Below are positions 16,134 to 56,076 of a stretch of DNA of 64,000 nt, in pieces (the first letter of the stretch is position 1; every line of letters starts with the position of its first letter). The stretch spans positions 12,773-76,772 of the forward strand of contig DASSTC010000016.1 in NCBI GenBank assembly GCA_035708065.1, read 5' to 3'. A program made the translations under genes and the position numbers. The notes below the pieces were generated by a model that did not search any database, had not been told where the DNA came from, and saw only the letters and a list, made by a program, of their open reading frames with translations. Source of the DNA: Candidatus Limnocylindria bacterium. Its GTDB lineage: Bacteria > Chloroflexota > Limnocylindria > QHBO01.

Positions 16134-16706
16134 CTATTCGAACTCCCAGCTCCGCTTACGGCCCAACGCCTCCCACTCGGATCGCAGGATCGCCATCAGG
16201 ACGACGTCATGGTGTGCGCCGCGGTGAAACCGCGCTCGACGCAGCACCGCCTCCCGCACGAAGCCGGACTTCTCGTACGAGCGCATCGCGCGCGGGTTGT
16301 AGTCGAAGACGTGGAGGTAGATGCGCTCGAGGCGCAGCTCGCCGAAGGCGAAGTCGAGGAGCGTGTTGACCGCGTCGGTGCCGAGGCCACGGCCCCACGA
16401 GCCGCGCAACATGAAGATCGAGAGCTCCGCGTTGCCGTCGGTGCGATCAACCGAGCGCAGTCCGCAGCTGCCGATCTCGTCGTTCGAGCCGAGCGAGCAC
16501 ACTGCGAACTGGAAGACCGATTGGCCGAGCTGCGGTCGCAGCTTCTCGAACCAGGCCTCGGAGGCCTCGCCGCCGATCGGCGACTTGAAGCCGGCATAGT
16601 GCGCCAGCTCCTGGTCGTCGAGGGGCCTGCTGACGTCGGCCTTCTCGAGCCAGCGCAGCCAGACGTGCTCGCCGCGCAGCATTGGCATCGGTCTGCCTTC
16701 GGTCAC
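16134..16706 (-). CDS. GNAT family N-acetyltransferase (RimJ/RimL-like)
   Basis: 190 aa. WGRGLGTDAVNTLLDFAF...N.RAMRSYEKSGF is an acetyl-CoA binding motif. GTG start. Confidence 0.85.
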   Translation of the reverse strand: MTEGRPMPMLRGEHVWLRWLEKADVSRPLDDQELAHYAGFKSPIGGEASEAWFEKLRPQLGQSVFQFAVCSLGSNDEIGSCGLRSVDRTDGNAELSIFMLRGSWGRGLGTDAVNTLLDFAFGELRLERIYLHVFDYNPRAMRSYEKSGFVREAVLRRARFHRGAHHDVVLMAILRSEWEALGRKRSWEFE

Positions 16707-16732: not shown

Positions 16733-16738
16733 TAGCAT
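16733..16738 (+). promoter_or_regulatory. -10-like TAGCAT 6 nt upstream of the ALDH ATG (leaderless start candidate)
   Basis: Sequence is TAGCAT-tcgccc-ATG(16745) with no SD. Confidence 0.35.
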
Positions 16739-16744
16739 TCGCCC

Positions 16745-18220
16745 ATGACCGAAGTCGAGATGCTCATCAACGGCGAGTCCCGCCCAGGCGCCGATGGGCG
16801 CACCTTCACCACCTACGAGCCCGCCCGCGGAACCTCCCTGGCCGAGGTCGCACGCGCCACGACCGACGACGTCGCGGCCGCGGTTTCCGCAGCCCGCGCG
16901 GCGTTCGAGGGTCCGTGGGCGAAGACGTCCCCCGCCAAGCGCTCGCGCATGCTGGCCAAGCTGGCGCAGCTGATCGAGTCACAGGCCGATGCCATCGCCG
17001 AGCTCGAGTCGCGCAACAACGGGAAGCCCAAGTGGCAGTGCCTGCTCGAGGTGCGCCAGGCGGTCAGCGACCTCGACCTGTTCGCGGGCGCCGCGCAGCA
17101 CATCTACGGCCGATCGTTCGCGGTCAGCCCGTCGGTGCTGTCCTACACGTTGCGTGAGCCGGTCGGCGTGTGCGCGGCGATCATTCCGTGGAACTACCCG
17201 TTCATGATGGCCGCCTGGAAGGTTGCCCCGGCGCTGGCGGCAGGATGCACCGTCGTGCTGAAGCCGGCCTCCGCGACGCCGATGACCGCGCTCGAGCTCG
17301 GGCGCCTGGCGCTCGAGGCCGGCATCCCGCCGGGCGTCGTCAACGTGGTCACCGGACCGGGCGCCGAGGTGGGGGAGGCGCTCGCCTCGCATCCGGGCGT
17401 CGAAAAGATCGCCTTCACCGGCGAGACCGGCACGGGCCGGCGGATTGCCGCGATCGCCGCCGACGGCCTGAAGCGCGTCTCGCTCGAGCTCGGCGGCAAG
17501 TCGCCGAACCTCGTCTTCGCCGACGCCAATCTCGACGCGGCGGTCCTCGGCTCGCTGTGGGCGATCTATTACTCGGGCGGCCAGTCGTGCGAGGCGCGCT
17601 CGCGGATCCTGGTCGAGGAGTCGCTGCACGACGCCTTCGTGGACGCGTTCGCCGAGAAGGCGCGCGCCCTGCGCATCGGTGACCCGCTGGCCGACGACAC
17701 GCAGGTCGGCTCGATGATCTCGCGCTCCCACGCCGAGAAGGTGCTGGGCTTCGTCAACGCCGCCGTCGAGGACGGCGCGCAGCTGGTGACCGGCGGCGCG
17801 GCGGATGGCGAGCTGGGCGAGGGGCTGGATGCATCGGCCTACGTGCGTCCGACGGTGATCGACTGCGTCGAGAACGACAGCCGCATCGGTCAGGAAGAGG
17901 TGTTCGGGCCGGTCGTCACGGTCACGACGTTCGCCGACGAGGCCGAGGCGGTGAAGCTCGCCAACGACGTGCGCTTCGGGCTGGCGGCGACGGTATGGAC
18001 CGGCGATTCGGCGCGTGGCCTGCGCGTGGCCGCGCGCGTCCGGGCCGGCACGGTCGGGGTGAACCAGCCGTTCGCGGCGTTCCCCGGCGTGCCGTTCGGC
18101 GGCTTCAAGGAGTCCGGCTACGGCCGCGAGATGAGCGTCGATGCGCTCGACCTGTACACCGAGCAGAAGGCGGTGCTGGTCAGCACCTCGCCGAAGCCGA
18201 TGAACCCGTTCGGGATGTAG
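16745..18220 (+). CDS. Aldehyde dehydrogenase family protein
   Basis: 491 aa. Has WNYPF, the ELGGKSP catalytic Glu motif, GQSCEA (catalytic Cys) and EEVFGPV. Confidence 0.93.
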   Translation: MTEVEMLINGESRPGADGRTFTTYEPARGTSLAEVARATTDDVAAAVSAARAAFEGPWAKTSPAKRSRMLAKLAQLIESQADAIAELESRNNGKPKWQCLLEVRQAVSDLDLFAGAAQHIYGRSFAVSPSVLSYTLREPVGVCAAIIPWNYPFMMAAWKVAPALAAGCTVVLKPASATPMTALELGRLALEAGIPPGVVNVVTGPGAEVGEALASHPGVEKIAFTGETGTGRRIAAIAADGLKRVSLELGGKSPNLVFADANLDAAVLGSLWAIYYSGGQSCEARSRILVEESLHDAFVDAFAEKARALRIGDPLADDTQVGSMISRSHAEKVLGFVNAAVEDGAQLVTGGAADGELGEGLDASAYVRPTVIDCVENDSRIGQEEVFGPVVTVTTFADEAEAVKLANDVRFGLAATVWTGDSARGLRVAARVRAGTVGVNQPFAAFPGVPFGGFKESGYGREMSVDALDLYTEQKAVLVSTSPKPMNPFGM

Positions 18221-18223
18221 CCG

Positions 18224-18811
18224 ATGGGCAGTGAGCTCCTGCGCTCCTTTCCGGAGTCGTTCGAGACCGAGCGCCTGCTCGTCCGCGCGGCGTCGCCCGA
18301 CGACGCGGAGCAGGCGAACGCGGCGGTCAACGAGTCGCGCGCCGAGCTGGTGCCCTGGATCTCGTGGGCCGACAAGGAGCTCGACCTCGATGCCGTGCGC
18401 GAGAGCCTGATCCGGGCGCGTGCCCGCTTCCTGCTGCGCGAGGATCTGCGCTTTCACCTGTTCCTGCGCGACGACCCAGCCACGTTCGTCGGGTCGATCG
18501 GGCTGCATCGGATGGACTGGAGAGTGCCGCGCCTGGAGATCGGCTACTGGCTGCGGACGAGCTACAGCGGACAGGGGTACGCGACCGAGGCGGTGCGGGG
18601 CATCACCGACTTCGCGTTCCGCGAGCTCGGCGCGGAGCGGCTCGAGATCTGGTGCGACGCGCGGAACGAGCGCAGCGCGGCGGTCGCTCGGCGCGCGGGA
18701 TTCAACCAGGAGGCGCTGCTACGGAACTACGACCGCGACACAGCGGGCGAGCTCGCGGATGCGCTGTGGTTCGGCCTGGTGCGCTCGGACTGGGAGGCAG
18801 GGCCCAAGTAG
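18224..18811 (+). CDS. GNAT family N-acetyltransferase (RimJ-like)
   Basis: 195 aa, starting 3 nt after the ALDH stop. SGQGYATEAVRGITDFAF...N.RSAAVARRAGF motif. Confidence 0.85.
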   Translation: MGSELLRSFPESFETERLLVRAASPDDAEQANAAVNESRAELVPWISWADKELDLDAVRESLIRARARFLLREDLRFHLFLRDDPATFVGSIGLHRMDWRVPRLEIGYWLRTSYSGQGYATEAVRGITDFAFRELGAERLEIWCDARNERSAAVARRAGFNQEALLRNYDRDTAGELADALWFGLVRSDWEAGPK

Positions 18812-18867: not shown

Positions 18868-19797
18868 ATGACCGACTCCCTCGCGGCGTGGTACGGACGA
18901 TTCCCCGAAGGCTGGTGGGGATACCACTGGACCGCGCCGCGGCCGATGTCGGCGGTCGAGATCGTCCAGTCCGGCAGCCTCGACGCGCGCCTGATGGCAA
19001 CCCTCTGGGCCGTCGTGTCCAGGCGCAAGAGCGTGATGCTCGCCTCGGAGGCGCCGATGGCCGGCAAGACGACCACCCTCTCGGCGCTCGTCGACTTCCT
19101 GCCGCCCGGCACCACCGGCGTCTTCCTGCGCGGCTGGGGCCAGGACGACAGCTGGGTCGACGAGATCGGTCCAGATGCTGCCTACATGCTCATCAACGAG
19201 ATGAGCGATCACCTGCCGATCTACGTCTGGGGTCGCAACGCGCGCGGCGCGCTGATCCTCGCCGGCAAGGGCTACGGCCTCGGTGCGACCATGCACGCCG
19301 ACTCGCTCGGCGAGGCGCTGGCCGCCCTGCGTTCCGACCTTGGTGCGACCGATGCGGACCTCGCCGGCCTGACGGTCTACCTCCAGTTCAGCGCCTATCG
19401 CACGCCGGCCGGGATGTATCGGCGCTGCGAGGAGGCCTGGCACCTCCGCCTCGACCAGTCCGGCTGCCTGGCGCCGGTGCAGCTCGCCGCGATGGAGGGC
19501 GATCGTTCACCGATCCTGACCGGTGCGCAACGGCTTCCGGCTCCACCAACGCTGGCCACCGATGCGGGCCGCCGGCATCGGCCGTTCGTGCATGACGCCG
19601 CCGCCTACGCGATCCTCGCACGCAACCTTGGGCTCGAGGCCGATGCGTTCGAGGCAGAGCTCCTGCATCGGTCTGGCTACCTGACCAGTCTGGGCGAGCG
19701 CGGCATCTGCGATCCTGTCTCCGTCGCCTACGCCCTCGCCGATTATGCAACCGATCCGTCCGCACCGCCCGATCCGTCCGAAGGAGCCGCGTCATGA
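18868..19797 (+). CDS. Divergent secretion-ATPase-like (VirB11/PilT/CpaF-type) P-loop protein lacking the usual N-terminal domain
   Basis: 309 aa from ATG 18868. Walker-A-like SEAPMAGKTTTLSAL, Walker-B/Glu-like YMLINEMSD, and His-box-like GLGATMHADS. The stop overlaps the next gene's ATG (ATGA). Confidence 0.6.
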   Translation: MTDSLAAWYGRFPEGWWGYHWTAPRPMSAVEIVQSGSLDARLMATLWAVVSRRKSVMLASEAPMAGKTTTLSALVDFLPPGTTGVFLRGWGQDDSWVDEIGPDAAYMLINEMSDHLPIYVWGRNARGALILAGKGYGLGATMHADSLGEALAALRSDLGATDADLAGLTVYLQFSAYRTPAGMYRRCEEAWHLRLDQSGCLAPVQLAAMEGDRSPILTGAQRLPAPPTLATDAGRRHRPFVHDAAAYAILARNLGLEADAFEAELLHRSGYLTSLGERGICDPVSVAYALADYATDPSAPPDPSEGAAS

Positions 19798-21206
19798 CCC
19801 ACCCGAGCATCGCCACCCTCGCCGAGCTGCGGGAGTCGGGCTATCGCTCGCGATCGGTGAAAGAGGAGATGCGCGGCAACCTCGTCGAGCGGCTGCGCGC
19901 CGAGGAGCCGCTGCTGCCCGGCATCCTGGGCTACGACGAGACGGTGCTGCCGCAGATCGAGAACGCGATCCTGGCGGGACAGGACATCATCCTGCTCGGC
20001 GAACGCGGCCAGGCGAAGTCGCGCATCGCCCGCTCACTGGTGGGACTGCTCGACGAGTGGATCCCGTTCGTCGCCGGTGCCGAGCTGCACGACGACCCGC
20101 TGGCGCCGATCTCGCCGTACGCTCGTGCCGTCGTGGCCGAGTCGGGCGATGCGACGCCGATCGAGTGGCTGCACCGCGACGACCGCTACGGCGAGAAGCT
20201 CGCCACCCCGGACATCTCGATCGCCGACCTCATCGGCGAGGTGGATCCGGTGAAGGTGGCGGAAGGCCGCTACCTGTCCGACGAGCTGACGATCCACTAC
20301 GGCCTGCTGCCGCGGACGCATCGGGGCATCTTCGTGCTCAACGAGCTGCCTGACCTGGCCGAGCGGATCCAGGTCGGCCTGCTCAACGTGATGGAGGAGC
20401 GCGACGTCCAGATCCGCGGCTACCGGGTGCGGCTGAACCTGGACCTCTTTGTCGTGGCCTCGGCCAACCCAGAGGACTACACCTCGCGCGGCCGGATCAT
20501 CACGCCGCTCAAGGACCGATTCGGTGCGCAGATCCGGACGCACTACCCGGAAGAGGCCGAGACGGAGATCGCGATCATGGAGGCCGAGCGGATGCGCTTC
20601 GCCGATCCGGTCTCGTCCGCCGTGCCGGTGCACTCGCCGGCATTCATGCAGGAGATCGTGGCCGAGCTGTCGCAGCTGGCCCGGCGGTCGTCGGAGGTGT
20701 CGCAGCGCTCCGGCGTGTCGGTGCGGGTCACCATCGCCAACGAGGAGACGCTGCTGGCCGCCGCGCTGAAGCGGGCGGTGCGCCTCGACGAGTCGACGGC
20801 GGCGCCGCGCGTGTCGGATCTGCCGGCGGTGGTCGCCTCGACCGCGGGCAAGATCGAGCTCGAGACGCTCGGCGACGAGTCGCGCGAGGACCGGGTCGTC
20901 GACAAGCTCGTCCAGCGCGCCGTGGTGAACGTCTTCAACCGGCACTACGCGCTTTCAGAGCTGGTGCCTCTGCTCGAGCGCTTCGAGTCCGGCGTGGAGG
21001 CCGAGGTCGGGGAGACGGCCCCGTCGGCCGCGCACGAGCTGCTCGTCGAGCAGATCCCCGAGCTGCGGCGCGCGGTGAGCCGCCTGGACGTGGGCGAGTC
21101 GCAGGCGGGGCTGGCGTCTGCGGTCGAGTTCGTGCTCGAGGGTCTGCATCTCAACCGGCGGCTCAACAAGGAGCGGCGCGCCGGCGGCGTGCGCTACGCA
21201 CGCTAG
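19794..21206 (+). CDS. ChlI/BchI-like AAA+ ATPase (often annotated Mg-chelatase-like or sigma54-interacting)
   Basis: 470 aa with AAGGAG SD 8 nt upstream. Variant Walker A LLGERGQAKS, Walker B IFVLNELPDL, and VQIRGYRVRLNLDLFVVASANPEDY. Confidence 0.85.
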   Translation: MTHPSIATLAELRESGYRSRSVKEEMRGNLVERLRAEEPLLPGILGYDETVLPQIENAILAGQDIILLGERGQAKSRIARSLVGLLDEWIPFVAGAELHDDPLAPISPYARAVVAESGDATPIEWLHRDDRYGEKLATPDISIADLIGEVDPVKVAEGRYLSDELTIHYGLLPRTHRGIFVLNELPDLAERIQVGLLNVMEERDVQIRGYRVRLNLDLFVVASANPEDYTSRGRIITPLKDRFGAQIRTHYPEEAETEIAIMEAERMRFADPVSSAVPVHSPAFMQEIVAELSQLARRSSEVSQRSGVSVRVTIANEETLLAAALKRAVRLDESTAAPRVSDLPAVVASTAGKIELETLGDESREDRVVDKLVQRAVVNVFNRHYALSELVPLLERFESGVEAEVGETAPSAAHELLVEQIPELRRAVSRLDVGESQAGLASAVEFVLEGLHLNRRLNKERRAGGVRYAR

Positions 21207-21224
21207 GCCGGTTCGCGGGCTGGC

Positions 21225-21680
21225 ATGCGGGGGACGACGCGGCCTGATCCCTTTCCCACGGCGCGCTTCGCTGCGCTCGTCGGCCGCTTCCCGCACTACG
21301 CGCGGCTCGCCTGGCGGCTGGGACGCGACGACCGGCTGAGCGGCGGCCGCCGTGCCGCGGTCCTCGCTGCGGCCGCGTACCTCGCGTCGCCGATCGACCT
21401 GGTGCCCGGCATCATCCCGTTCGCCGGACAGCTCGACGATGCCGCGGTCGCCCTCATCGGTCTGCGCTTCGCCTTGCGCGGGCTCGCCCCCGGAGACCGT
21501 GCCGTGCTGCTTGCCGACGTGGGTCTGTCCACGCACCACCTCGACGAGGATTTGGCGACGGTTCGTACGGGCGCAGGCTGGCTGCTGCGCCGCGGCGGTC
21601 GCCTCGGCGCGTCGCTGCTGCGCGGTGCCGGGCGGGCGGTCGCCGCTGGCGTCCGGCGCGCATCGGACCTGCGGCGGTAG
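21225..21680 (+). CDS. DUF1232 (YkvA-like) membrane protein
   Basis: 151 aa. The YLASPIDLVPGIIPFAGQLDDAAV motif is characteristic of DUF1232. Confidence 0.75.
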   Translation: MRGTTRPDPFPTARFAALVGRFPHYARLAWRLGRDDRLSGGRRAAVLAAAAYLASPIDLVPGIIPFAGQLDDAAVALIGLRFALRGLAPGDRAVLLADVGLSTHHLDEDLATVRTGAGWLLRRGGRLGASLLRGAGRAVAAGVRRASDLRR

Positions 21681-21824
21681 GGCGCTGGCGCCCCGCCATG
21701 CGATCGGTCTGGACTAATTCAAATCACGAACGCCCTAGGCGAGCCGAGCGCCTCTCGTCGCGCGCAACTTCAATCAGGACTGGCTTACGACGGTCGCCGC
21801 GGCCGCCGAAGCACGACCGCACGT

Positions 21825-22568
21825 TCATCTCGCCTGCGAAACGCGGACGCGCTGCTGTCCTGCCCGCCTTAGCCCCGTCTGATTTGAGTTGGGCAGCGAC
21901 ACGAATGACAACAGCCCGTCGACCGGATGGGGATGCTGCACCCATGCCTCGACGGCGCGGCCGCGCACCGAGTAGCCGGCGAACAGCGCTTCGTGCTCCG
22001 CAACACGGCGTCGGACCGTTCGGCCTTCGAGGAAGATGAGCGCGCCGACGACCCACTTCGCCCGCCAGCCCCGCTCCGCCGCAACGCGCGGCCCGAGGCG
22101 CACCTTGGCGTCAAGTAGCCCGAGCGTCTCCTGGGTATCCCACAGGCCCGTCTTGCACTCGCTGACCTCGAGGATTCCGCTTTCCGGATGAAACGCGAGC
22201 TGATCAATTCGGCCTCGCTCGCCGTAAATGCTGTAGCTCGCCTCGTTCCAGACTTGCCAACCGGCGCCGTGGTGACGCCTCGCCCACTCGCTTTCCAGCC
22301 GCGCATGGTCGCCATCCAACAATCGGTCGAGGTCGCCGCGGCCGTGCCATCGCACGTCGAGCGATGCCGAGGCATCCAGGACGCGAAGCACCGCGCGAAC
22401 GGTGGCCAGCGTGTACCGCTCGGCGCGCCCGCGCTCGATCTCCGAGATGGCGCCGGTGCTGACATTCGCACGCGCTGCAAGATCGACCTGGCGCCAGCCG
22501 CGGCGCTGGCGAAGGACGAGGACTGAACGACCGATGCGTGCGTCATCCACACGCCGACCATCGCACAC
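21825..22568 (-). CDS. XRE-family HTH protein fused to a PD-(D/E)xK nuclease-like C-terminal domain
   Basis: 247 aa. N-terminal HTH is LRQRRGWRQVDLAARANVSTGAISEIERG. C-terminal ...GRIDQLAF-(9)-LEVSECK fits D...ExK. GC is visibly lower than in the neighbouring genes. Confidence 0.75.
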   Translation of the reverse strand: MCDGRRVDDARIGRSVLVLRQRRGWRQVDLAARANVSTGAISEIERGRAERYTLATVRAVLRVLDASASLDVRWHGRGDLDRLLDGDHARLESEWARRHHGAGWQVWNEASYSIYGERGRIDQLAFHPESGILEVSECKTGLWDTQETLGLLDAKVRLGPRVAAERGWRAKWVVGALIFLEGRTVRRRVAEHEALFAGYSVRGRAVEAWVQHPHPVDGLLSFVSLPNSNQTGLRRAGQQRVRVSQAR

Positions 22569-22657
22569 CGGTCGTTACCAGGCGATTACCGCCGGGTTTT
22601 ACCGGCAACGGCGCCGATGGACGCCGGGGCATCGGTCTGGCACTGTAGCGAGGCACC

Positions 22658-24691
22658 ATGGCGCTGTACCGATACTCCCGCTGGGACGGCACGCAGAACC
22701 TGCCGCCGTTCGACGCCGACGACGTGCTCGAGGCGCTGGGCGAGGACGTCCTGGCCGAGGGCGACATTCGGCGGGCGCTGCAGCGACTGATGCAACGCGG
22801 GATGCAGGGGCGGCGCGGCGGCGACGTGCCGGGGCTGCGCCAGATCATGGACCGGCTGCGGCAGCGGCGGCGGGAGGAGCTCGAGCAGAGCAACCTCGGC
22901 GGCGTGCTCGACGACATCAAGGAGCGGCTGGAGAAGATCGTCGAGGCGGAGCGCGCGGGGATCGAGCAACGCGTCAACGACGCCGAGAACCGGGCGCTCG
23001 ATGCGCCGCCGGGAGCGGATCAAGACCAGGCCCGCATGGCCGAGCAGGTCCTGCGCCGAACGGCCCAGCAGCGAACGGACCGGCTGGACTCACTGCCGCG
23101 CGACGTCGCCGGGCAGATGCACGGCCTGCGCGACTACGAGTTCATGGATCCCGACGCGCGCGATGCTTTCCAACTGCTCTCCGACGAGCTCCGACAGCAG
23201 ATGCTGGAGACGTACTTCCAGGGGCTGAAGGAAGGCGTGCAGGGCGTGACGCCCGAGCAGCTCGCCGGCGTGCGCGACATGGTCAAGGACCTCAACGAGC
23301 TGCTCGAGAAGCACGCGGCCGGCTCTGACACGCCGGACGACTTCGCGCAGTTCATGGCCAAGCACGGCCATTACTTCCCGCCGGGCATCGAGAACGTCGA
23401 CCAGCTCATCGACCACATGCATCGGCAGGCCAGCCAGATGGCAAGCCTGCTGAACAGCATGAGCCCCGAGATGCGCGCGGAGCTGCAGCAGATGATGGAC
23501 GACCTGCTGCGCGACGACCGGCTGCGCTGGGACATGGCCCGCCTGGCGGGCAACCTCCAGGCGCTGCGCCCGGATCTCAACTTCGGTGAGCCGTATCCCT
23601 TCTCGGGTGACGAGCCGATGGGCCTGCCGCAGGCGATGGCCGCCATCGACCGGCAGCAGCGCTTCGACGAGATGGAGGAGGCCCTCGGCGCGGCACGCGA
23701 CCCGGACGGCCTGGAGCGGATCGACGAGGAGCTGCTGGGTGACCTTGCCGGCGACGACAGCGCCGAGGACCTGGAGCAGCTCCGCGAGCTGACCCGCGCG
23801 CTCGAGGAGGCAGGCTACCTGGAGCGCGACGGCGGCCGGCTGGAGCTGACCCCGAGGGCCGCCCGCAAACTGGGCATGCGCGCGCTGACGGAGATCTTCT
23901 CCAAGCTGCGGCGCGACTCGTTCGGCGGGCACACGCTTCCCCGCTCTGGCTTCGGCGGCGAACGGACCGATGAGACCAAGCCGCTGGAGTTCGGCGACCC
24001 GTTCGCCATCGACCTGAACCGGACGCTGTTCAACGCGATGGCCCGCGAAGGGCCGGGCACACCGATGCGCATCTCACCCGACGACTTCGAGGTGCATCGC
24101 TCCGAAGAGACGACGGTCAGCTCGACCGTCCTGCTGCTGGACATGAGCCGATCCATGCTGCTGCGTGGCTGCTCGACCGCCGCGAAACGGGTGGCCATGG
24201 CGCTCCACACGCTCATTCACACGAAGTACCCGCGGGATCGGCTGTTCGTGGTCGGCTTCGCGTACTACGCGCGCCAGATCAAGCCCGAGGCGATCGCCAC
24301 GCTGAGCCCGTACGAGTTCGAGTACGGCACCAACCTGCAGCACGCGCTGATCATTGCTCGCCAGCTGCTCGGCCGGCGGCACGGCGGCAACAAGGAGATC
24401 GTGGTCATCACCGACGGCGAGCCGACCGCGCACATCGCCAACGGCCAGGTCGAGTTCGCCTACCCGCCGACCATCCGCACCATGCAGTCGACGCTGCGGG
24501 AAGTCGGTCGGGCGACGAAGGAAGGCATCGTCATCAACACCTTCATGTTGGAACGCTCGCGCTATCTCTCCGAGTTCGTCGACCTGATGAGCCGCATCAA
24601 TCGCGGCCGCGCGTTCTACGTCGAGCCGGAGAACCTGGGCGAGTACGTGCTGGTCGACTACGTTTCGAAGAAGACCAAACGCGTCGCGTAG
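22658..24691 (+). CDS. VWA domain protein (partner of the ChlI-like AAA+), long helical acidic N-terminal region
   Basis: 677 aa. N-terminus is MALYRYSRWDGTQ. The C-terminal VWA has a complete MIDAS (LLLDMSRSM ... GTNLQ ... VITDGEPT). Confidence 0.88.
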   Translation: MALYRYSRWDGTQNLPPFDADDVLEALGEDVLAEGDIRRALQRLMQRGMQGRRGGDVPGLRQIMDRLRQRRREELEQSNLGGVLDDIKERLEKIVEAERAGIEQRVNDAENRALDAPPGADQDQARMAEQVLRRTAQQRTDRLDSLPRDVAGQMHGLRDYEFMDPDARDAFQLLSDELRQQMLETYFQGLKEGVQGVTPEQLAGVRDMVKDLNELLEKHAAGSDTPDDFAQFMAKHGHYFPPGIENVDQLIDHMHRQASQMASLLNSMSPEMRAELQQMMDDLLRDDRLRWDMARLAGNLQALRPDLNFGEPYPFSGDEPMGLPQAMAAIDRQQRFDEMEEALGAARDPDGLERIDEELLGDLAGDDSAEDLEQLRELTRALEEAGYLERDGGRLELTPRAARKLGMRALTEIFSKLRRDSFGGHTLPRSGFGGERTDETKPLEFGDPFAIDLNRTLFNAMAREGPGTPMRISPDDFEVHRSEETTVSSTVLLLDMSRSMLLRGCSTAAKRVAMALHTLIHTKYPRDRLFVVGFAYYARQIKPEAIATLSPYEFEYGTNLQHALIIARQLLGRRHGGNKEIVVITDGEPTAHIANGQVEFAYPPTIRTMQSTLREVGRATKEGIVINTFMLERSRYLSEFVDLMSRINRGRAFYVEPENLGEYVLVDYVSKKTKRVA

Positions 24692-24718: not shown

Positions 24719-25630
24719 ATGCCCGAATGGGATCCCGAGGTCGTGGTCTCCGAGCGCCTCGCTCGCCAGCTTCTCGAGGCGCAGTTCCCGGAGCTGACCG
24801 TCGCCGGCCTGCGGCTCCTCGCCGAGGGCTGGGACAACACCGTGTGGCTGGTCAACGACGACCTCGTGTTCCGCTTTCCGCGCCGGGCGATCGCCATTCC
24901 GGGCGTCGAACGCGAGATCACGATCTTGCCGGCGCTGGCTCCTCGACTGCCCGCGGCGATCCCGACTCCGCTGCTCATCGGCCGACCGACCGATGCGTTC
25001 GCCTGGCCGTTCTTCGGCGCCCGCCTGGTTCCCGGACGCGAGCTGGCTGACGCCGACCTGACCGATGCCGCCCGCCTGCTGCTGGCACCCGAGCTGGGGC
25101 GCTTCCTGCGTGTGCTCCACGCGCCGGAGCTGCTCGACGCCTTCGGCGAACAGCTGCCGGTCGACCCGAACCGCCGCGCCGACATGACGTTCCGCGTGCC
25201 GATGACCCGCGAGCGCCTCGCCGAGCTCGACCGCCGCGGGCTGTGGCAGCCGCGCCCCGTCCCGTGGTTCGCCGAGGCCGAGTCGCTGCCCGCCTCCTCG
25301 CGCAGCGCCGTGACCCACGGGGATCTTCACCTCCGGCACGTGCTCGTCCACGACGACGGCTCGCTGGGCGGCGTCATCGACTGGGGCGATCTCGGTCGCA
25401 GCGACCCGGCGATCGACCTACCGCTGTACTGGAGCGCGCTGCCGCCGGCTGCGCGCCCGGCGTTCGTCGAGGCGTACGGAGCGTTGGACCATGCCGCGCT
25501 CCTTCGCGCCCGAGTCTTGGCCGTCTTCCTGAGCGGAACGTTGGCGCTCTACGCGGACGCCGAGGACCTGCCCGCGCTGAAACGCGAGGCGTCGCAGAGC
25601 CTGGAGCGAGCGATCGTCGATTCGGATTGA
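24719..25630 (+). CDS. Aminoglycoside-phosphotransferase-like (APH/ChoK family) kinase
   Basis: 303 aa. AEGWDNTVW, and HGDLHLRHVLV...GVIDWGDLG (catalytic loop plus DxG/IDW motif). Confidence 0.88.
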   Translation: MPEWDPEVVVSERLARQLLEAQFPELTVAGLRLLAEGWDNTVWLVNDDLVFRFPRRAIAIPGVEREITILPALAPRLPAAIPTPLLIGRPTDAFAWPFFGARLVPGRELADADLTDAARLLLAPELGRFLRVLHAPELLDAFGEQLPVDPNRRADMTFRVPMTRERLAELDRRGLWQPRPVPWFAEAESLPASSRSAVTHGDLHLRHVLVHDDGSLGGVIDWGDLGRSDPAIDLPLYWSALPPAARPAFVEAYGALDHAALLRARVLAVFLSGTLALYADAEDLPALKREASQSLERAIVDSD

Positions 25631-49231: not shown

Positions 49232-52105
49232 TCAGCCGCCTCGGCGGCGGCGCGCGAGACGCTCGGCGAGCGTCTCGCCTGCCGGCGGATTCGGTGGGGT
49301 CGGCGTTTCGGCCGCCCGAGCAGGTGGCGGGGCAGTGGCTGCGGGTGCGGTCGGTGTGGCGGCTATCTCGCCCGATCGCTGGCTCAACCGGCTGCGACGG
49401 TCGCGCGCCACGCGCAGCTCGGCAAGCACCGGCACGGACTCCGGCGCCCGACGGCCGAGGCCAACGCGGCGCGCCACCCAGGCACGCGCCCGCGCCAGGT
49501 CCCCGCGCGACAGCGCCACGCGCCGCACGCCGATGTCGAGTGGCACGAGGAGAATGGCGAGCACCAGCAGCCACGGCCAGATCGGCGTCGGGAAGGCATC
49601 GGCCGCGATGTCGTGGCGCCACACGGCGGCTGCGGCAGCCGGATCCGCCGGGTCGAGAGATCGGCCGTGGCCGGTCGCGGCGAAGCGCGCCAGCGCGTCG
49701 GCGTTCACCCCGAGCCGCCGAAACTCCTGCGCGGCCGGGCTGACGATCCCAAGCGTGCGGCTGGCCGAATCGGTCGTGGTCGTCTGGGCCACGCGAACGA
49801 GGTACGCGCCCGGATCGTCGGCGCGGATGGCGCCGGCGTATCGGCCCGGCCCGACCTGGGTCAGCGTCGACTGCGTCGGCGTGAGGTCGGGCGACACGAG
49901 CCGGAGAACCGTGCGGTAGAAGTTGCGCGGCGCGCCGTCGTCGTCGAGTGAGGTGAGGTTCACGTTGAGCTGCCCGTCGCGTCCCGGGCTGAACTGCACG
50001 TCGATGCCCTGGGCGTCCTGCGGGGGCAGCGTCCAGCCGACCATCTGCGCCAGCGCGGTGCCGTAGACATCGGTGCCGATCCATTCGGTCGCCCATTGCG
50101 CCCGAGCGTCGGAGGTCCAGGCGACCGCGCGGCCGAGGCCGTACTGCCATTGCGCCAGCAGCGGGTCGTCCCGGGCGGTGAGCAGCGCCACGCTGGCGGT
50201 CCCCTTGGCGGTCGTGGCGTTGTAACCGAGCAGCGCGGGCAGGCGGCCGGCATCCAGGCCGCGCAGGATCTCGGAGGGCTGCGCCGGAACCGGCTGGAAT
50301 CGCTCCTCGACGATCTTCTCGCCGGCGGTGCGAATCGTCTCCTTGAGGAAGATGTCGGGGATCTTGGTGGCATCGGCCGCGTCGTAGTAGCGGCCTCCCG
50401 ATTCCTCGGCGAGCGACTTGAGGATGTGGGCCGAGCCACCGCCGGTGCCGATCGTCGACAGCGTGATCCCGGCGGCCTTCATGTCGGCGAGGAGGGCGTC
50501 GTACGTGCCTGACTGTGACCAGCCATCGGTGATGAGGATGATGTGGCGCAGCTTGGCCGGGTTCCGGACCAGGTCGTCGTACGCCGCCTTGAGGCCGGCA
50601 TAGATGTTCGTCGTGCCGTCGGCCGCGAAGCCGAGCCCGGCCTGCAGCGCATTGAGGTCGATCGGTGCGGTGTGCACCGCCCAATGCGCGCCGCCGTCGA
50701 AGGTGACCACACCGAGCTGATCGGAGGGCGCGAGGGCATCGGCCGCACGCAGGATCGCCTCCTTGGCGACGTCCACTTTCTCGAAGCCGCGGCTGCCGCC
50801 GGTCGCGTTGTCGCGGTTGTCGCCGGTGCAGTGGCAATCGGCCATCGAGCCGGACTTGTCGACCACGGCCACCAGCGCCACGTCTGGCGAGCGCTGCTTG
50901 TCGCGCACGGTCATGTACACCGGCATCGTTTCCTCGATCGGCGAGTTGAGGTAGCCGCCGGCGCCGTAGCTCTGCTTGCCCCCGATCATGACCAGGCCTT
51001 TGCCGAGATCGCGGACATAGACCTGCAGCGACGCCATCGCGGCATCGCCGAGCGCGGCGGCCGGGACGTCATCAAGGACCACCGCGTCGTAGCCCGCGAG
51101 CGTCGCCAGCGATGACGGAACGCCGCCGGCGGGGACCACCGTGACCTGCTGTCGCGCGGCCTCGAGCGCGTCGCGCAGCGTCGCGGCGTGGGCCGGATCG
51201 TCGGTTGCCAGCAGAACCTGCGGTTCGCCGCTGACCAGGACGTACGCATCCGCCGCGTTGTTCTGGGTGAAGTGATCGGTCTTCGGCTCGATCACCGCGC
51301 GGAACACGTGGAAGCCGGCCGCATCGGCCTTCACCGAGAAGTCGACCGACTGGCTGCCGGCCTTCAGCGTGAGGTCACGCGTGGCCACCGTCTGGCCATC
51401 GGCCAGCAGGCGCAACGTGGCCGTCGTCGCCACCGTCGACCGCACCCGCGCGGTCAGGTGGATCGTCTCGCCGACACGCGCGCCGGTCGGGGCGTCGAGG
51501 CCGTCGAACAGCGCCTCGCCGTACGTGTCGGTCGCCGGCTGCACGACATCCAGGCGCACGCCGCGGTCCGCGGCGGCCAGGATCGCCTGCTCGGCGCCGC
51601 CGGCCGTGTCGTTGCCGTCGGAGAGCAGCACGAGCCGCTGCTGTGTCCCGGCGGGGAAGATGGCGGTCGCCAGGCGCACCGCCGCACCGATGTCGCTGGC
51701 GCCGACCACCGGGATCGACGCCGGCTCGCTCAGCTCGTCGGACTGTGACGGCAGGCGGTCGACGAGCGCGTTCCCGCCGAAGACGACGACGCCGGCGGTA
51801 TCCGCCTCCGGCATGTCGCGGACCGATGCCCGCGCGAAGTCGAGCAGCGCCTGGCGGCTGCTGTCGACCATGGACGCCGACGCATCGACGAGGAAGACGA
51901 CGCTCAGCCGGTCGGACGGCAGCGCCAGCCGGGCTCCGGCCAGGGCAAAGACGAGCGCGCCGACGAGCACCAGCCGGATGACGAGCGACGCGATGCGCCT
52001 CCCGCGGGGCAGGACCCGCGACGCGACCAGCCAGCCGCCGACGACGAGGGCGACCGAAGGCACGAGCAGCCACAGCCAGGCAGGCGTGGCGAAGGCAACC
52101 GGCAT
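49232..52105 (-). CDS. Large membrane protein: TM - VWA - GATase1/ThuA-like - VWA - TM (BatB/DUF4159-like)
   Basis: 957 aa from ATG 52105 (TGATG junction). Two MIDAS motifs (FLVDASASM, VVDKSGSM). The middle segment is YDAVVLDDVP...LGKGLVMIGG. Confidence 0.85.
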   Translation of the reverse strand: MPVAFATPAWLWLLVPSVALVVGGWLVASRVLPRGRRIASLVIRLVLVGALVFALAGARLALPSDRLSVVFLVDASASMVDSSRQALLDFARASVRDMPEADTAGVVVFGGNALVDRLPSQSDELSEPASIPVVGASDIGAAVRLATAIFPAGTQQRLVLLSDGNDTAGGAEQAILAAADRGVRLDVVQPATDTYGEALFDGLDAPTGARVGETIHLTARVRSTVATTATLRLLADGQTVATRDLTLKAGSQSVDFSVKADAAGFHVFRAVIEPKTDHFTQNNAADAYVLVSGEPQVLLATDDPAHAATLRDALEAARQQVTVVPAGGVPSSLATLAGYDAVVLDDVPAAALGDAAMASLQVYVRDLGKGLVMIGGKQSYGAGGYLNSPIEETMPVYMTVRDKQRSPDVALVAVVDKSGSMADCHCTGDNRDNATGGSRGFEKVDVAKEAILRAADALAPSDQLGVVTFDGGAHWAVHTAPIDLNALQAGLGFAADGTTNIYAGLKAAYDDLVRNPAKLRHIILITDGWSQSGTYDALLADMKAAGITLSTIGTGGGSAHILKSLAEESGGRYYDAADATKIPDIFLKETIRTAGEKIVEERFQPVPAQPSEILRGLDAGRLPALLGYNATTAKGTASVALLTARDDPLLAQWQYGLGRAVAWTSDARAQWATEWIGTDVYGTALAQMVGWTLPPQDAQGIDVQFSPGRDGQLNVNLTSLDDDGAPRNFYRTVLRLVSPDLTPTQSTLTQVGPGRYAGAIRADDPGAYLVRVAQTTTTDSASRTLGIVSPAAQEFRRLGVNADALARFAATGHGRSLDPADPAAAAAVWRHDIAADAFPTPIWPWLLVLAILLVPLDIGVRRVALSRGDLARARAWVARRVGLGRRAPESVPVLAELRVARDRRSRLSQRSGEIAATPTAPAATAPPPARAAETPTPPNPPAGETLAERLARRRRGG

Positions 52106-54033: not shown

Positions 54034-54130
54034 CTTTCCGGCCCCATGTGACTGGGACGGCGGTGAAGGGACCGCCGGCCGCTCATCCTCGTCGGACGGC
54101 TCGCTCCTTCGACGGGTCGAGTGGTGGCCG

Positions 54131-55024
54131 TCATGCGGTGATGCGGCGGCGTCGGAGGACGTCGAAGAGGAGGTCCGCCAGGTCGAGGTCGCTCGGCACG
54201 GTGACGTACGAGCCGCCGCGGCGGGCGACGAAGGCCGCGATCTCGGCCTGCCATTCGCCCAGCCGGGTGCGGTATCGGTCGACGAGGTCGTCGTCGCCGG
54301 TGACCTCGATGCCCTGGCCGGTCTCGGTGTCGACCAGCCGTGCATCGGGCGGGACGTCGGGATCGAGCTCCTCGGGCGCCAGGACGTGGAGGACGCTGAG
54401 CTGGCAGCGCGTGCGGGCCAGGTCGCGCAACGCGTCCAGGTAGCCGGGATCCATCAGGTCGCTGATGAGCAGCAGCGGCCCGGAACCGCGCAGGCGGCCG
54501 GCGTATTCGCGCGCCGCGGCTGCCAGGCCGGTCAGTCGCTCGGTGCGCGGCTCGGAGAGAAAGCGGAAGACCTCGAACACGCGACCCTTGCCGCGCAGCG
54601 GCCGAAGTGTCGACGCGTGGCCGTCTCCCAGAAAGGCGACGCTCACCCGATCGAGGTGGGCCAGGCCGAGGTAGGCGAGCGCGGCAGCGGCACGACGGGC
54701 GAACTCGAGCTTGTTCGGGTCGCCGAAGTTCATGCTCGCGCTGGCATCGACCAGGACGTGGACGGTGACGTCCTCCTCCTCGACGAAGAGCTTGACGAAC
54801 AGCTTCTCGAGCCGCGCGTAGACGTTCCAGTCGAGCTGGCGCAGGTCGTCGCCGTGCGTGTAGTTGCGGTAGTCGGCGAACTCGACCGACTGCCCGCGCT
54901 TCGTGGAACGCCGCTCGCCCTTCATCCGCCCGGCGGTCAGCCGCCGCGACGCCAGCTCGAGCTGCTCGAGGCGCCGCAGGAACGCCTCGTCAAACAGCGG
55001 CGGGCGGTCCGAGACGATCATCAC
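54131..55024 (-). CDS. DUF58 domain protein (MoxR-associated, VWA-like)
   Basis: 297 aa. GERRSTKRGQSVEFADYRNYTHGDDLRQLDWNVYAR plus VLVDASASM is the classical DUF58 signature. Confidence 0.92.
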   Translation of the reverse strand: MMIVSDRPPLFDEAFLRRLEQLELASRRLTAGRMKGERRSTKRGQSVEFADYRNYTHGDDLRQLDWNVYARLEKLFVKLFVEEEDVTVHVLVDASASMNFGDPNKLEFARRAAAALAYLGLAHLDRVSVAFLGDGHASTLRPLRGKGRVFEVFRFLSEPRTERLTGLAAAAREYAGRLRGSGPLLLISDLMDPGYLDALRDLARTRCQLSVLHVLAPEELDPDVPPDARLVDTETGQGIEVTGDDDLVDRYRTRLGEWQAEIAAFVARRGGSYVTVPSDLDLADLLFDVLRRRRITA

Positions 55025-55059
55025 GCTCGGCGCAAACGGGTCTGCGTCATGCGGAACGG

Positions 55060-56072
<1,013 letters not shown>

Positions 56073-56076
<4 letters not shown>

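What the first reader, a model, noticed from the sequence alone, without database searches (positions are those of the whole stretch)
18868..24691. Secretion-ATPase-like P-loop protein translationally coupled to a ChlI-like AAA+ and a MIDAS VWA protein
A 309-aa protein has VirB11/PilT/CpaF-type core motifs: SEAPMAGKTTTL, LINEMSD and GATMHADS. It lacks the usual N-terminal domain, and the first Gly of its Walker A is replaced. It ends in an ATGA overlap (19794-19797) with a 470-aa ChlI/BchI-like AAA+ that has a variant Walker A (GERGQAKS).

Downstream follow a DUF1232 membrane protein and a 677-aa protein whose C-terminal VWA has a complete MIDAS. AAA+/VWA pairs are known as chelatases or maturation chaperones (ChlI/ChlD, CoxD/E, NorQ/D, CbbQ/O, RavA/ViaA) and occur in NTP-dependent conflict systems. 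I know of no described role for a secretion-type ATPase welded onto such a pair. The whole set appears to be driven from the leaderless ALDH-GNAT promoter at 16733.
Basis: partly seen in the sequence, partly recalled or inferred. Interest (0 to 1): 0.6.

Follow-up and report, generated by a model that had tools for sequence, protein, structure and literature searches.

The report
Truncated motor ATPase joined to AAA+/VWA pair
A soil Chloroflexota genome carries a conserved, expressed three-gene set in which the bare catalytic half of an archaeal-type pilus/archaellum motor ATPase sits in front of an uncharacterised chelatase-like AAA+ ATPase and its VWA partner (the pair also found in mycobacteria, where the VWA protein is Rv0959); I found no description of this combination, and its function is unknown.

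Summary

- **Small ATPase.** The 309-aa protein folds confidently (pLDDT 89). Its best structural matches are the C-terminal ATPase domains of archaeal GspE and FlaI (Foldseek E 7e-15, TM 0.69). It lacks the N-terminal domain.
- **Family.** It belongs to a Chloroflexota-wide family of about 270-300-aa stand-alone proteins under purifying selection.
- **AAA+.** The 470-aa protein is ChlI-like but is not a chelatase subunit. Its Walker B reads NE where DE is expected; this holds in all homologues checked, including an actinobacterial one. Its Walker A reads GERGQAK[ST] in all 81 Chloroflexota/soil-metagenome copies (GERGQGKT in the actinobacterium).
- **VWA.** The 677-aa protein is of the Rv0959 type, with an invariant MIDAS and a NorD-like VWA fold.
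- **Linkage.** It recurs in three gene orders: small-AAA+-VWA in Limnocylindria and in cultured Thermomicrobium roseum, small-AAA+ in metagenomic soil contigs, and VWA-small in three other Chloroflexota. An actinobacterial pair beside purN-purH lacks the small ATPase.
- **Expression.** Published T. roseum RNA-seq lists all three genes as expressed. The AAA+ rises 1.9-fold in stationary phase.
- **Operon claim.** The single-operon claim from the ALDH promoter is not supported.

Function is unknown. The likeliest reading is an ATP-driven remodelling machine with a lineage-specific third NTPase.

The parts
18868..19797 (+). Stand-alone FlaI/GspE-type C-terminal ATPase domain, 309 aa, with no N-terminal domain
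   Evidence: AF2 pLDDT 89.4, pTM 0.89. Foldseek hits: 2oap E 6.8e-15 with TMq 0.69, FlaI 1e-14. The family profile hits 2oap at E 2.2e-31. dN/dS is 0.25.
19045..19080 (+). Walker A region SEAPMAGKTTTL. GK[ST] is kept and the first Gly position is Glu.
   Evidence: In the family, Gly66 is invariant, Lys67 and Thr69 are 90% or more conserved, and the first position is variable (G/E/D/L).
19189..19233 (+). Walker-B-like family signature LINEMSDHLPIYVWG (N110, E111, S113, H115, Y119 invariant)
   Evidence: This is the only core segment that HMMER does not align to afGspE.
19282..19305 (+). His-box GATMHADS
   Evidence: H143 and A144 are nearly invariant.
19794..19797 (+). ATGA stop/start overlap between the small ATPase and AAA+ genes, with a GAAGGAG SD 8 nt upstream
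   Evidence: The same 4-nt overlap occurs in 43 of 76 related loci.
19794..21206 (+). ChlI-like AAA+ ATPase, 470 aa, inferred to be of the Rv0958 type
   Evidence: PDB ChlI 8osf E 1.9e-7. Weak Pfam hits to AAA_5, Sigma54_activat and Mg_chelatase. 66% identical to the T. roseum protein and 51% to the Tsukamurella protein beside purN-purH.
19998..20021 (+). AAA+ Walker A variant GERGQAKS (Ala at the sixth position)
   Evidence: GERGQAK[ST] occurs in all 81 copies from Chloroflexota loci and the two soil-metagenome contigs L085/L086. The actinobacterial copy has GERGQGKT.
20334..20357 (+). AAA+ Walker B variant VLNELPDL (Asn where Asp is expected)
   Evidence: NELPDL is invariant, including in T. 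roseum and Tsukamurella.
21225..21680 (+). DUF1232 protein, 151 aa; a variable passenger in the AAA+/VWA gap
   Evidence: Pfam E 2e-12. Present in this slot in about 12 of 80 related loci.
21825..22568 (-). XRE-type HTH_31 protein, 247 aa, on the opposite strand; probably an insertion that splits the module
   Evidence: GC3 is 0.77, against 0.84-0.94 for the module genes. A homologue sits in the same slot only in L006.
22658..24691 (+). Rv0959-type VWA protein, 677 aa: long helical N-terminal region plus C-terminal VWA
   Evidence: Close homologues carry PF27532 Mb0984_helical, PF27098 Rv0959_3rd and VWA_2. AF2 pLDDT 76. The VWA fold is nearest NorD in NorQD complexes, E 1.5e-6.
24140..24154 (+). 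MIDAS DxSxS motif (DMSRS)
   Evidence: Invariant, together with GTN and TDGEPT.

Best explanation
The three genes form a functionally linked cytoplasmic module of Chloroflexota. The core is an AAA+ ATPase plus a MIDAS-bearing VWA adaptor. This pair is widespread and uncharacterised: the VWA protein belongs to the Rv0959 family, and the AAA+ is inferred to be the Rv0958 counterpart.

By analogy with NorQ/NorD, CbbQ/CbbO, CoxD/CoxE and ChlI/ChlD, the pair most likely remodels or matures a client protein using ATP (inferred). Chloroflexota have added a third component: the catalytic C-terminal domain of an archaeal-type FlaI/GspE motor ATPase, freed from its N-terminal domain and from any pilus machinery (shown).

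The small protein keeps the P-loop Lys/Thr, a Walker-B Glu and the His box. To my knowledge, in full-length relatives the N-domain supplies arginine fingers, and that domain is missing here. I therefore infer that the small protein binds nucleotide and acts as a nucleotide-gated accessory or regulatory subunit that docks on the VWA protein and/or the AAA+ ring. I do not think it works as an independent hexameric motor.
For: Fold and homology:
- establish the FlaI/GspE-type fold.
- Family-wide conservation of G66, K67, T69, E111 and H143, with dN/dS 0.25, indicates a functional protein.

Linkage in independent gene orders:
- In Limnocylindria, 66 of 76 loci have the AAA+ gene within 200 nt, 43 of them with a 4-nt overlap. 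The VWA gene lies downstream in 33 of 47 loci.
- Thermomicrobium roseum DSM 5159 has the full trio with 25-26-nt spacers.
- L085 and L086 have small then AAA+.
- L095, L098 and L099 have the Rv0959-type VWA gene immediately upstream of the small ATPase, with unrelated flanks.

Partner proteins:
- The VWA domain has an invariant MIDAS, and its nearest solved fold is NorD bound to NorQ.
- The AAA+ protein is nearest to ChlI/BchI.

Expression:
- In T. roseum all three genes are expressed, and the AAA+ gene rises 1.86-fold in stationary phase (FDR 2e-31). Source: PMC6776052 Table S1.
- Mapping trd_A0504-A0506 onto the trio is my inference from their order and names.
Against: - No physical interaction, ATPase activity or client has been shown.
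- Family members in L084 and L096 have no AAA+ or VWA neighbour. In 14 of 47 Limnocylindria loci the VWA gene is not within the flank held downstream (5.5-8 kb).
- The one actinobacterial locus inspected (Tsukamurella) manages without the small ATPase, so the small ATPase is not intrinsic to the pair.
- In T. roseum the three genes differ in transcript level and in growth-phase response. This argues against simple stoichiometric co-expression.
- The region around the Asp box and Walker B is remodelled, so the small protein may not hydrolyse ATP at all.
- The AAA+ Walker B Asn could mean slow or no hydrolysis.
Confidence: 0.55

Rival explanations
1. The small ATPase is the client rather than a subunit. 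The AAA+/VWA pair would assemble, disassemble or load a cofactor onto the N-domain-less ATPase, for example with the MIDAS gripping an acidic residue of it. The real output of the system would then be whatever the small ATPase does.
For: Known AAA+/VWA pairs are often encoded beside their client (my knowledge of NorQD/NorB and CbbQO/RuBisCO). VWA-small adjacency occurs without the AAA+ gene in three loci. In T. roseum the small ATPase transcript is lower than the others and does not change with growth phase.
Against: The small ATPase has no recognisable output domain. The gene overlap with the AAA+ gene in Limnocylindria suggests coupled translation and fixed stoichiometry (inference), which is more typical of subunits.
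Confidence: 0.15
2. The pair is a class I metal chelatase motor of the ChlI/ChlD or CobS/CobT type, and the small ATPase is incidental.
For: Sources annotate the AAA+ as 'magnesium chelatase subunit I'. Weak hits to TIGR02442 and TIGR02030. ChlI and BchI are the best PDB sequence matches.
Against: Scores are far below the family cut-offs (36 bits against 779, and 30 against 467). The VWA protein has a helical N-terminal region and no AAA+ module like that of ChlD. No ChlH/CobN-like protein was found among the large ORFs of the window that I scanned. Walker B reads NE, not DE.
Confidence: 0.04
3. The trio is an NTP-dependent conflict or defence system.
For: AAA+/VWA combinations occur in such systems (PMC7159879, listed). 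In this window an HTH gene is inserted inside the locus.
Against: PADLOC gave no hit apart from two weak generic AAA+ matches to RtcR/PspF-type models (E about 1e-3). The AAA+ is 78-94% identical across about 80 Limnocylindria species loci, in a syntenic housekeeping context. It is 51% identical to an actinobacterial orthologue beside purN-purH and ribosomal protein genes. No effector domain is present.
Confidence: 0.04
4. The small ATPase is a decaying remnant of a Tad or type IV pilus locus, and its position next to the pair is chance.
For: It has a truncated architecture and non-canonical motifs. [quoted passage not shown]
Against: The family has 307 representative clusters at E below 1e-10 with uniform length. 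dN/dS is 0.25 and a family-specific motif is invariant. Linkage recurs in three different gene orders. No T2SSF/TadC or pilin Pfam families appear among the neighbours listed.
Confidence: 0.02

Closest known systems
Archaeal secretion ATPase GspE (Archaeoglobus fulgidus, PDB 2OAP) and archaellum ATPase FlaI (PDB 4II7, 4IHQ)
   Same: The C-terminal RecA-like ATPase domain is shared, including the archaeal-type C-terminal helical extension. The family profile aligns to afGspE residues 232-296 and 344-500 at E 2e-31. Foldseek TMq is 0.65-0.69.
   Different: - The roughly 225-residue N-terminal domain is missing and is replaced by a 24-residue PxxWWGxxW segment.
- The Asp-box to Walker-B segment is remodelled (RG..E.F, then NExSxHLPxYxWG).
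- The first Gly of Walker A is not conserved.
- No platform protein or pilin genes are nearby.
- The partners are an AAA+ and a VWA protein.
AAA+/VWA pair beside purN-purH in Actinobacteria (seen here in Tsukamurella; inferred to correspond to M. tuberculosis Rv0958 'possible magnesium chelatase' / Rv0959)
   Same: - The AAA+ protein is 51% identical to the Tsukamurella copy and the VWA protein 34% identical over its full length.
- The NELPDL Walker B and the MIDAS motif are shared.
- The AAA+ then VWA gene order is the same.
- Close homologues of the window's VWA protein carry the Pfam families Mb0984_helical and Rv0959_3rd.
   Different: The actinobacterial locus has no small ATPase; its upstream gene encodes an HTH_67 protein. 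The actinobacterial Walker A is canonical (GERGQGKT). The pair itself has no established function. Its M. smegmatis AAA+ orthologue was recovered in an RNA-polymerase-targeted affinity purification, but no DNA association was found (PMC7092591).
NorQ/NorD (MoxR-class AAA+ with VWA partner; PDB 9QH6-9QHG) and related CbbQ/O, CoxD/E, RavA/ViaA
   Same: An AAA+ ATPase is paired with a MIDAS VWA adaptor. NorD's VWA domain is the best structural match of the window's VWA domain (E 1.5e-6).
   Different: The AAA+ here is not a MoxR protein (AAA_3 scores 23.5 bits, below the cut-off of 27). The VWA protein has a roughly 450-residue helical N-terminal region with no PDB match. No client gene is evident. 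A third NTPase is present.
Mg-chelatase ChlI/ChlD and cobaltochelatase CobS/CobT
   Same: These are the closest solved relatives of the AAA+ by sequence (8osf at E 1.9e-7, 1g8p). They also follow the two-component AAA+/VWA logic.
   Different: Scores are far below the equivalog cut-offs. The VWA protein has no AAA+ module. No ChlH/CobN was found. The Walker motifs are non-canonical.

Membership tests
PilT/GspE/FlaI/VirB11 secretion ATPase superfamily (Pfam T2SSE PF00437) | C-terminal RecA-like ATPase domain fold | tested here: met
   Foldseek gives E 6.8e-15 and TMq 0.69 to 2oap. All 50 top hits are members of this superfamily. The family profile hits 2oap at E 2.2e-31.
PilT/GspE/FlaI/VirB11 secretion ATPase superfamily (Pfam T2SSE PF00437) | Passes the curated family model thresholds | tested here: not met
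   No Pfam hit at E 0.01 or better. NCBIfam FlaI scores 30.6 bits against a cut-off of 550, and TadA 16.2 against 373. A few distant family members do carry PF00437.
PilT/GspE/FlaI/VirB11 secretion ATPase superfamily (Pfam T2SSE PF00437) | N-terminal (N2/PAS-like) domain that packs on the neighbouring subunit and supplies arginine fingers | tested here: not met
   The protein starts 24 residues before the point that aligns to afGspE residue 232. The whole family is 260-310 aa long.
PilT/GspE/FlaI/VirB11 secretion ATPase superfamily (Pfam T2SSE PF00437) | Canonical Walker A, Asp box, Walker B (hhhhGE.RD) and His box | tested here: inconclusive
   The GK[ST] of Walker A, the Walker B Glu and the His-box His-Ala are conserved. 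The first Walker A Gly, the Asp box and the Gly/Arg-Asp of Walker B are not.
PilT/GspE/FlaI/VirB11 secretion ATPase superfamily (Pfam T2SSE PF00437) | Encoded with a platform protein (TadC/FlaJ/PilC) and pilins | tested here: not met
   No T2SSF or pilin Pfam families appear among the called neighbours of L001-L003, L084 or L095-L099, nor in the window genes flanking the module.
Mg-chelatase ChlI/BchI (TIGR02030) / cobaltochelatase (TIGR02442) | Passes the equivalog cut-off | tested here: not met
   30.5 bits against 466.95, and 36.1 against 779.45.
Mg-chelatase ChlI/BchI (TIGR02030) / cobaltochelatase (TIGR02442) | Partner D/T subunit (ChlD: AAA+-like module plus VWA) and an H/N catalytic subunit | tested here: not met
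   The N-terminal 450 residues of the VWA protein are helical with no AAA+ hit. No ChlH/CobN was found among the window ORFs scanned. The rest of the genome could not be searched.
MoxR-class AAA+/VWA chaperone pairs (NorQD, CbbQO, CoxDE, RavA-ViaA) | AAA+ gene linked to a VWA gene with an intact MIDAS | tested here: met
   The VWA fold is nearest NorD.
MoxR-class AAA+/VWA chaperone pairs (NorQD, CbbQO, CoxDE, RavA-ViaA) | AAA+ belongs to the MoxR family (Pfam AAA_3) | tested here: not met
   AAA_3 scores 23.5 bits against a cut-off of 27. A true MoxR elsewhere in the same window scores 212 bits.
MoxR-class AAA+/VWA chaperone pairs (NorQD, CbbQO, CoxDE, RavA-ViaA) | Identified client enzyme whose maturation depends on the pair | not testable with these tools
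   No conserved client gene is seen. The flanking genes differ between lineages.
Rv0958/Rv0959-type AAA+/VWA pair | VWA protein with Mb0984_helical + Rv0959_3rd + VWA_2 architecture | tested here: met
   Precomputed Pfam annotations on homologues 81-83% identical to the window protein, and on the 44-46% identical proteins of L095, L098 and L099. My Pfam copy lacks these two models, so the window protein itself was not scanned with them.
Rv0958/Rv0959-type AAA+/VWA pair | Orthology to the actinobacterial pair beside purN-purH | tested here: met
   In the Tsukamurella locus (purN, purH ... AAA+, VWA), the AAA+ is 51% identical over 456 aa and the VWA 34% over 681 aa. The M. tuberculosis sequences themselves were not compared.
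Known anti-phage defence systems (PADLOC) | Any component matches a defence-system model | tested here: not met
   There were only two weak, generic AAA+ matches to RtcR/PspF-type models, at E about 1e-3.

The most novel reading that the evidence does not exclude
The trio is an undescribed dual-NTPase machine. In this reading the long helical N-terminal region of the Rv0959-type VWA protein takes the place of the lost N-terminal domain of the FlaI-type ATPase. It would tether that RecA-type ATPase to a ChlI-type AAA+ ring, so that two unrelated ATPase engines act on one client.

A wider version is also open. One family member lies next to PrkA-YeaH(DUF444)-SpoVR in a Sphaerobacter MAG, and the T. 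roseum AAA+ gene rises in stationary phase. The small ATPase could therefore be a general accessory of AAA+/VWA-type starvation or persistence machines.
Probability: 0.2. Interest if true: 0.75.

Novelty: new variant of a known kind. Interest (0 to 1): 0.55.

Why it matters
AAA+/VWA pairs are a recurring design for ATP-driven maturation of metalloenzymes and complexes. The Rv0958/Rv0959-type pair is conserved from Chloroflexota to Mycobacteriales (Tsukamurella checked here) and still has no known function.

A lineage in which the pair has gained a dedicated third partner gives a new handle on that question. The module is present and expressed in a cultured thermophile, Thermomicrobium roseum DSM 5159. 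Thermophile proteins are often well suited to biochemistry and cryo-EM, so the question can be tested directly.

The module is also a clear case of a type-IV-filament motor domain reused outside filament biology.

Tried and rejected
- **Genome scan.** The genome-contig scan with a family alignment first failed because it had no conserved stretch. It then returned only Limnocylindria loci, because only the best 80 are kept. It gave depth within the class but no breadth.
- **Metagenome scan.** A scan with the canonical-P-loop clade gave only 6 loci, 2 of them informative.
- **Short contigs.** Look-ups of P0198, P0164 and P0171 landed on contigs of 1-2.7 kb with too little flank to judge.
- **Reads on the window.** Reads from a soil run labelled 'GENOMIC RNA-Seq' gave fragmented contigs at low depth. 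One 224-nt contig crosses the small/AAA+ junction. The library may be DNA, so this is no evidence of co-transcription.
- **Whole-genome search.** I have no phyletic profile and could not search the rest of this genome for ChlH/CobN or further copies.
- **Promoters and terminators.** The scan found no promoter and only background-level terminator hits.
- **Tsukamurella upstream gene.** It was tested as a possible cryptic small ATPase and rejected: hhalign probability 0.2%, and Pfam assigns it to HTH_67.
- **Rejected readings.** Defence system, chelatase and pilus-remnant explanations were considered and rejected, as set out under the rival explanations.


Full report
**Observation**

The window is 70% G+C. 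It comes from a member of Candidatus Limnocylindria, phylum Chloroflexota, judged from the names on near-identical proteins and contigs.

The region reads as follows.

| Coordinates | Strand | Gene |
|---|---|---|
| 16745-18220 | + | Aldehyde dehydrogenase |
| 18224-18811 | + | GNAT acetyltransferase |
| 18868-19797 | + | 309-aa small ATPase |
| 19794-21206 | + | 470-aa AAA+ |
| 21225-21680 | + | DUF1232 protein |
| 21825-22568 | - | HTH_31 regulator, 247 aa |
| 22658-24691 | + | 677-aa VWA protein |
| 24719-25630 | + | APH-family kinase |

The ATGA overlap at 19794-19797 is real and is preceded by a GAAGGAG Shine-Dalgarno sequence.

**The 309-aa protein**

- *Sequence searches on the single protein.* There is no Pfam hit. 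There are weak hits to NCBIfam FlaI (1.4e-7, residues 25-81) and to afGspE 2OAP (5e-6).
- *Family profile.* A profile of 24 diverse family members hits afGspE at E 2.2e-31, over afGspE residues 232-296 and 344-500. It hits FlaI at 3e-21 and bacterial CpaF only at 3e-4.
- *Structure.* The AlphaFold model is confident (pLDDT 89.4, pTM 0.89). Foldseek places it on the C-terminal ATPase domains of afGspE and FlaI (E about 1e-14, TMq 0.65-0.69, about 300 aligned columns). CpaF, PilU/PilT, PilB, DotB and VirB11 follow.

So it is the catalytic half of an archaeal-type type-IV-filament ATPase, including the archaeal C-terminal helical extension. A 24-residue PxxWWGxxW segment stands in place of the roughly 225-residue N-terminal domain.

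**The small-ATPase family**

- *Size.* An exhaustive search of 1.8 billion representatives finds 307 clusters at E of 1e-10 or better, nearly all 260-310 aa long.
- *Taxonomy.* Named members come from Limnocylindria, Thermomicrobiaceae, Sphaerobacter, Dehalococcoidia and Ktedonosporobacter. [quoted passage not shown]
- *Conserved residues.* G66, N110, E111, S113, H115, Y119 and R185 are invariant. K67, T69, H143 and A144 are nearly invariant.
- *Walker A.* Many members have a canonical GPSGAGKT P-loop. The Limnocylindria clade has E/S-A-P-x-A-GKT.
- *Divergent segment.* The segment between the Asp box and Walker B (RG..E.F ... NExSxHLPxYxWG) is the only core part that does not align to afGspE.
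- *Selection.* Pairwise dN/dS within Limnocylindria is 0.25 for the small ATPase and 0.20 for the AAA+.

The protein is therefore a selected, probably nucleotide-binding protein and not a relic. Whether it hydrolyses ATP is open. To my knowledge the N-domain of full-length relatives contributes the arginine fingers, and that domain is absent here.

**The AAA+ protein**

- *Closest relatives.* Among solved structures it is closest to ChlI/BchI (8osf at 1.9e-7). It is far below the chelatase equivalog cut-offs and just below the MoxR AAA_3 cut-off.
- *Walker A.* It reads GERGQAK[ST] in all 81 copies examined (Chloroflexota loci plus the two soil-metagenome contigs L085/L086). The actinobacterial copy has the canonical GERGQGKT.
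- *Walker B.* It reads NELPDL in every copy, including the actinobacterial one. The Asn where Asp is expected is thus a trait of every copy examined, not a local defect.

**The VWA protein**

- *MIDAS.* The DxSRS...GTN...TDGEPT residues are invariant.
- *Family.* Close homologues carry the Pfam families Mb0984_helical, Rv0959_3rd and VWA_2.
- *Structure.* The model (pLDDT 76) shows about 450 helical residues followed by a VWA domain. The best structural neighbours of the VWA domain are NorD in NorQD complexes, then Rea1/MDN1 MIDAS, BatA-like proteins and Rpn10. The helical part has no PDB match.

**Linkage**

The 80 Limnocylindria species loci give these counts.

| Comparison | Count |
|---|---|
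| Loci with downstream sequence | 76 |
| AAA+ gene within 200 nt of the small ATPase | 66 of 76 |
| Same 4-nt overlap as in the window | 43 of 76 |
| AAA+ gene 0.2-3.7 kb away (inserted genes) | 9 of 76 |
| No AAA+ gene | 1 of 76 |
| VWA gene downstream (loci with at least 5.5 kb of flank) | 33 of 47 |
| VWA gene directly after the AAA+ gene | 18 of 47 |

The gap between the AAA+ and VWA genes is prone to insertions. It holds a DUF1232 gene in about 12 loci, a PLP decarboxylase in L002 and L003, and DUF1232 plus an HTH gene here.

Outside Limnocylindria the picture is as follows.

- *Thermomicrobium roseum DSM 5159 megaplasmid.* It carries small-AAA+-VWA with 25-26-nt spacers. The proteins are 40%, 66% and 48% identical to the window's.
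- *Two soil contigs.* They have small then AAA+.
- *Three unrelated Chloroflexota loci.* The Rv0959-type VWA gene lies immediately upstream of the small ATPase, with different flanks and no AAA+ gene in the locus.
- *Two loci.* They show no partner.
- *One Sphaerobacter locus.* A family member lies 690 nt upstream of PrkA-DUF444-SpoVR.
- *Tsukamurella (Mycobacteriales).* The AAA+/VWA pair lies downstream of purN-purH. The gene in front encodes an unrelated HTH_67 protein.

The small ATPase is therefore a Chloroflexota addition to an older, wider pair. It is linked to both members of the pair.

**Expression**

Table S1 of PMC6776052 gives TMM-normalised RNA-seq counts for T. roseum.

| Locus tag | Annotation in the table | Exponential | Stationary | Ratio | Significance |
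|---|---|---|---|---|---|
| trd_A0505 | Magnesium chelatase subunit ChlI | 6819 | 12709 | 1.86 | FDR 2e-31 |
| trd_A0506 | Hypothetical protein | 7130 | 8420 | 1.18 | FDR 0.007 |

Equating these tags with TRD_RS11475, 11480 and 11485 is my inference from their order and names. All three genes are expressed, and the AAA+ gene responds to nutrient limitation. The unequal levels argue against one uniformly abundant transcript.

**Operon claim**

A TAGCAT hexamer lies 6 nt upstream of the ALDH start codon. This is compatible with a leaderless start but is untested. The consensus scan finds no promoter.

The opposite-strand HTH gene makes read-through from DUF1232 into the VWA gene unlikely. The ALDH is immediately adjacent in only 7 of 57 relatives, and the GNAT between ALDH and the small ATPase appears only here and in L005. 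Metagenomic read data were uninformative.

**Interpretation**

- *Shown:* the fold, the family, selection, recurrent linkage in three gene orders, and expression in a cultured relative.
- *Inferred:* by analogy with NorQD, CbbQO, CoxDE and ChlID, the AAA+/VWA pair is an ATP-driven remodelling or maturation device. The small ATPase is a nucleotide-gated accessory subunit or, less likely, its client.

I rejected the chelatase, defence and pilus-remnant readings. The reasons are failed cut-offs, no H/N subunit in the window, no defence-system match beyond two weak generic AAA+ hits in PADLOC, vertical high conservation, and no pilus genes.

**Literature and earlier notes**

Literature searches found no functional study of Rv0958/Rv0959 and no description of the trio. 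The nearest precedent is the reported linkage of vWA/MoxR-GvpN pairs to some archaeal type IV pilus loci as putative regulators (PMC4858521).

Earlier notes of this scan describe the same module in other genomes and reach the same reading. I treated them as leads and re-derived the claims here.

- the cultured T. roseum instance with published expression data;
- the finding that the Walker B Asn is shared with the actinobacterial copy examined, while the Walker A Ala is not;
- NorD as the closest solved VWA fold.

Noticed in passing
window 49232-56076 (-): A canonical MoxR operon: MoxR AAA_3 (55060-56076, E 3e-63), DUF58 (54131-55024), BatA-N plus VWA (52105-54345), and a 990-aa protein with two VWA domains and a GATase1_like domain (49232-52204). 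An ABC-2 transporter pair lies at 57839-60168. The genome therefore has a standard MoxR/VWA system in addition to the module studied here.
   Followed up: partly
window 21690-22650: The 247-aa XRE/HTH_31 gene on the minus strand (21825-22568) has lower GC3 (0.77) than its neighbours. Its downstream flank at 21700-21760 looks more A+T-rich by eye (not measured). A homologue (69% identical) sits in the same slot only in L006. This looks like a recent insertion into the swap-prone gap between the AAA+ and VWA genes. The C-terminal approximately 170 residues have no family assignment.
   Followed up: partly
L097:6001-12141 (Sphaerobacter MAG): A member of the small-ATPase family lies 690 nt upstream of PrkA (AAA_PrkA), DUF444/YeaH (VWA-like) and SpoVR. 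This is another AAA+-like/VWA-like starvation module. It is a single observation.
   Followed up: no
L099:944-6880: In one Chloroflexota MAG the Rv0959-type VWA gene is divergent from a CoxL/S/M-like molybdo-flavoprotein dehydrogenase operon, and it shows a faint VWA_CoxE hit. This may be coincidence or a hint at a client.
   Followed up: no
window 16134-16706 (-) and 18224-18811 (+): Two different GNAT acetyltransferase genes flank the ALDH gene. Relatives mostly have only the divergent minus-strand one. The plus-strand GNAT between the ALDH and the small ATPase is shared only with L005.
   Followed up: partly
L085:4134-4583: In the soil contig with small then AAA+ order, the next gene encodes a 2-TM protein with a coiled C-terminal region, not a VWA protein. 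In that lineage the VWA partner must be encoded elsewhere or be absent.
   Followed up: no
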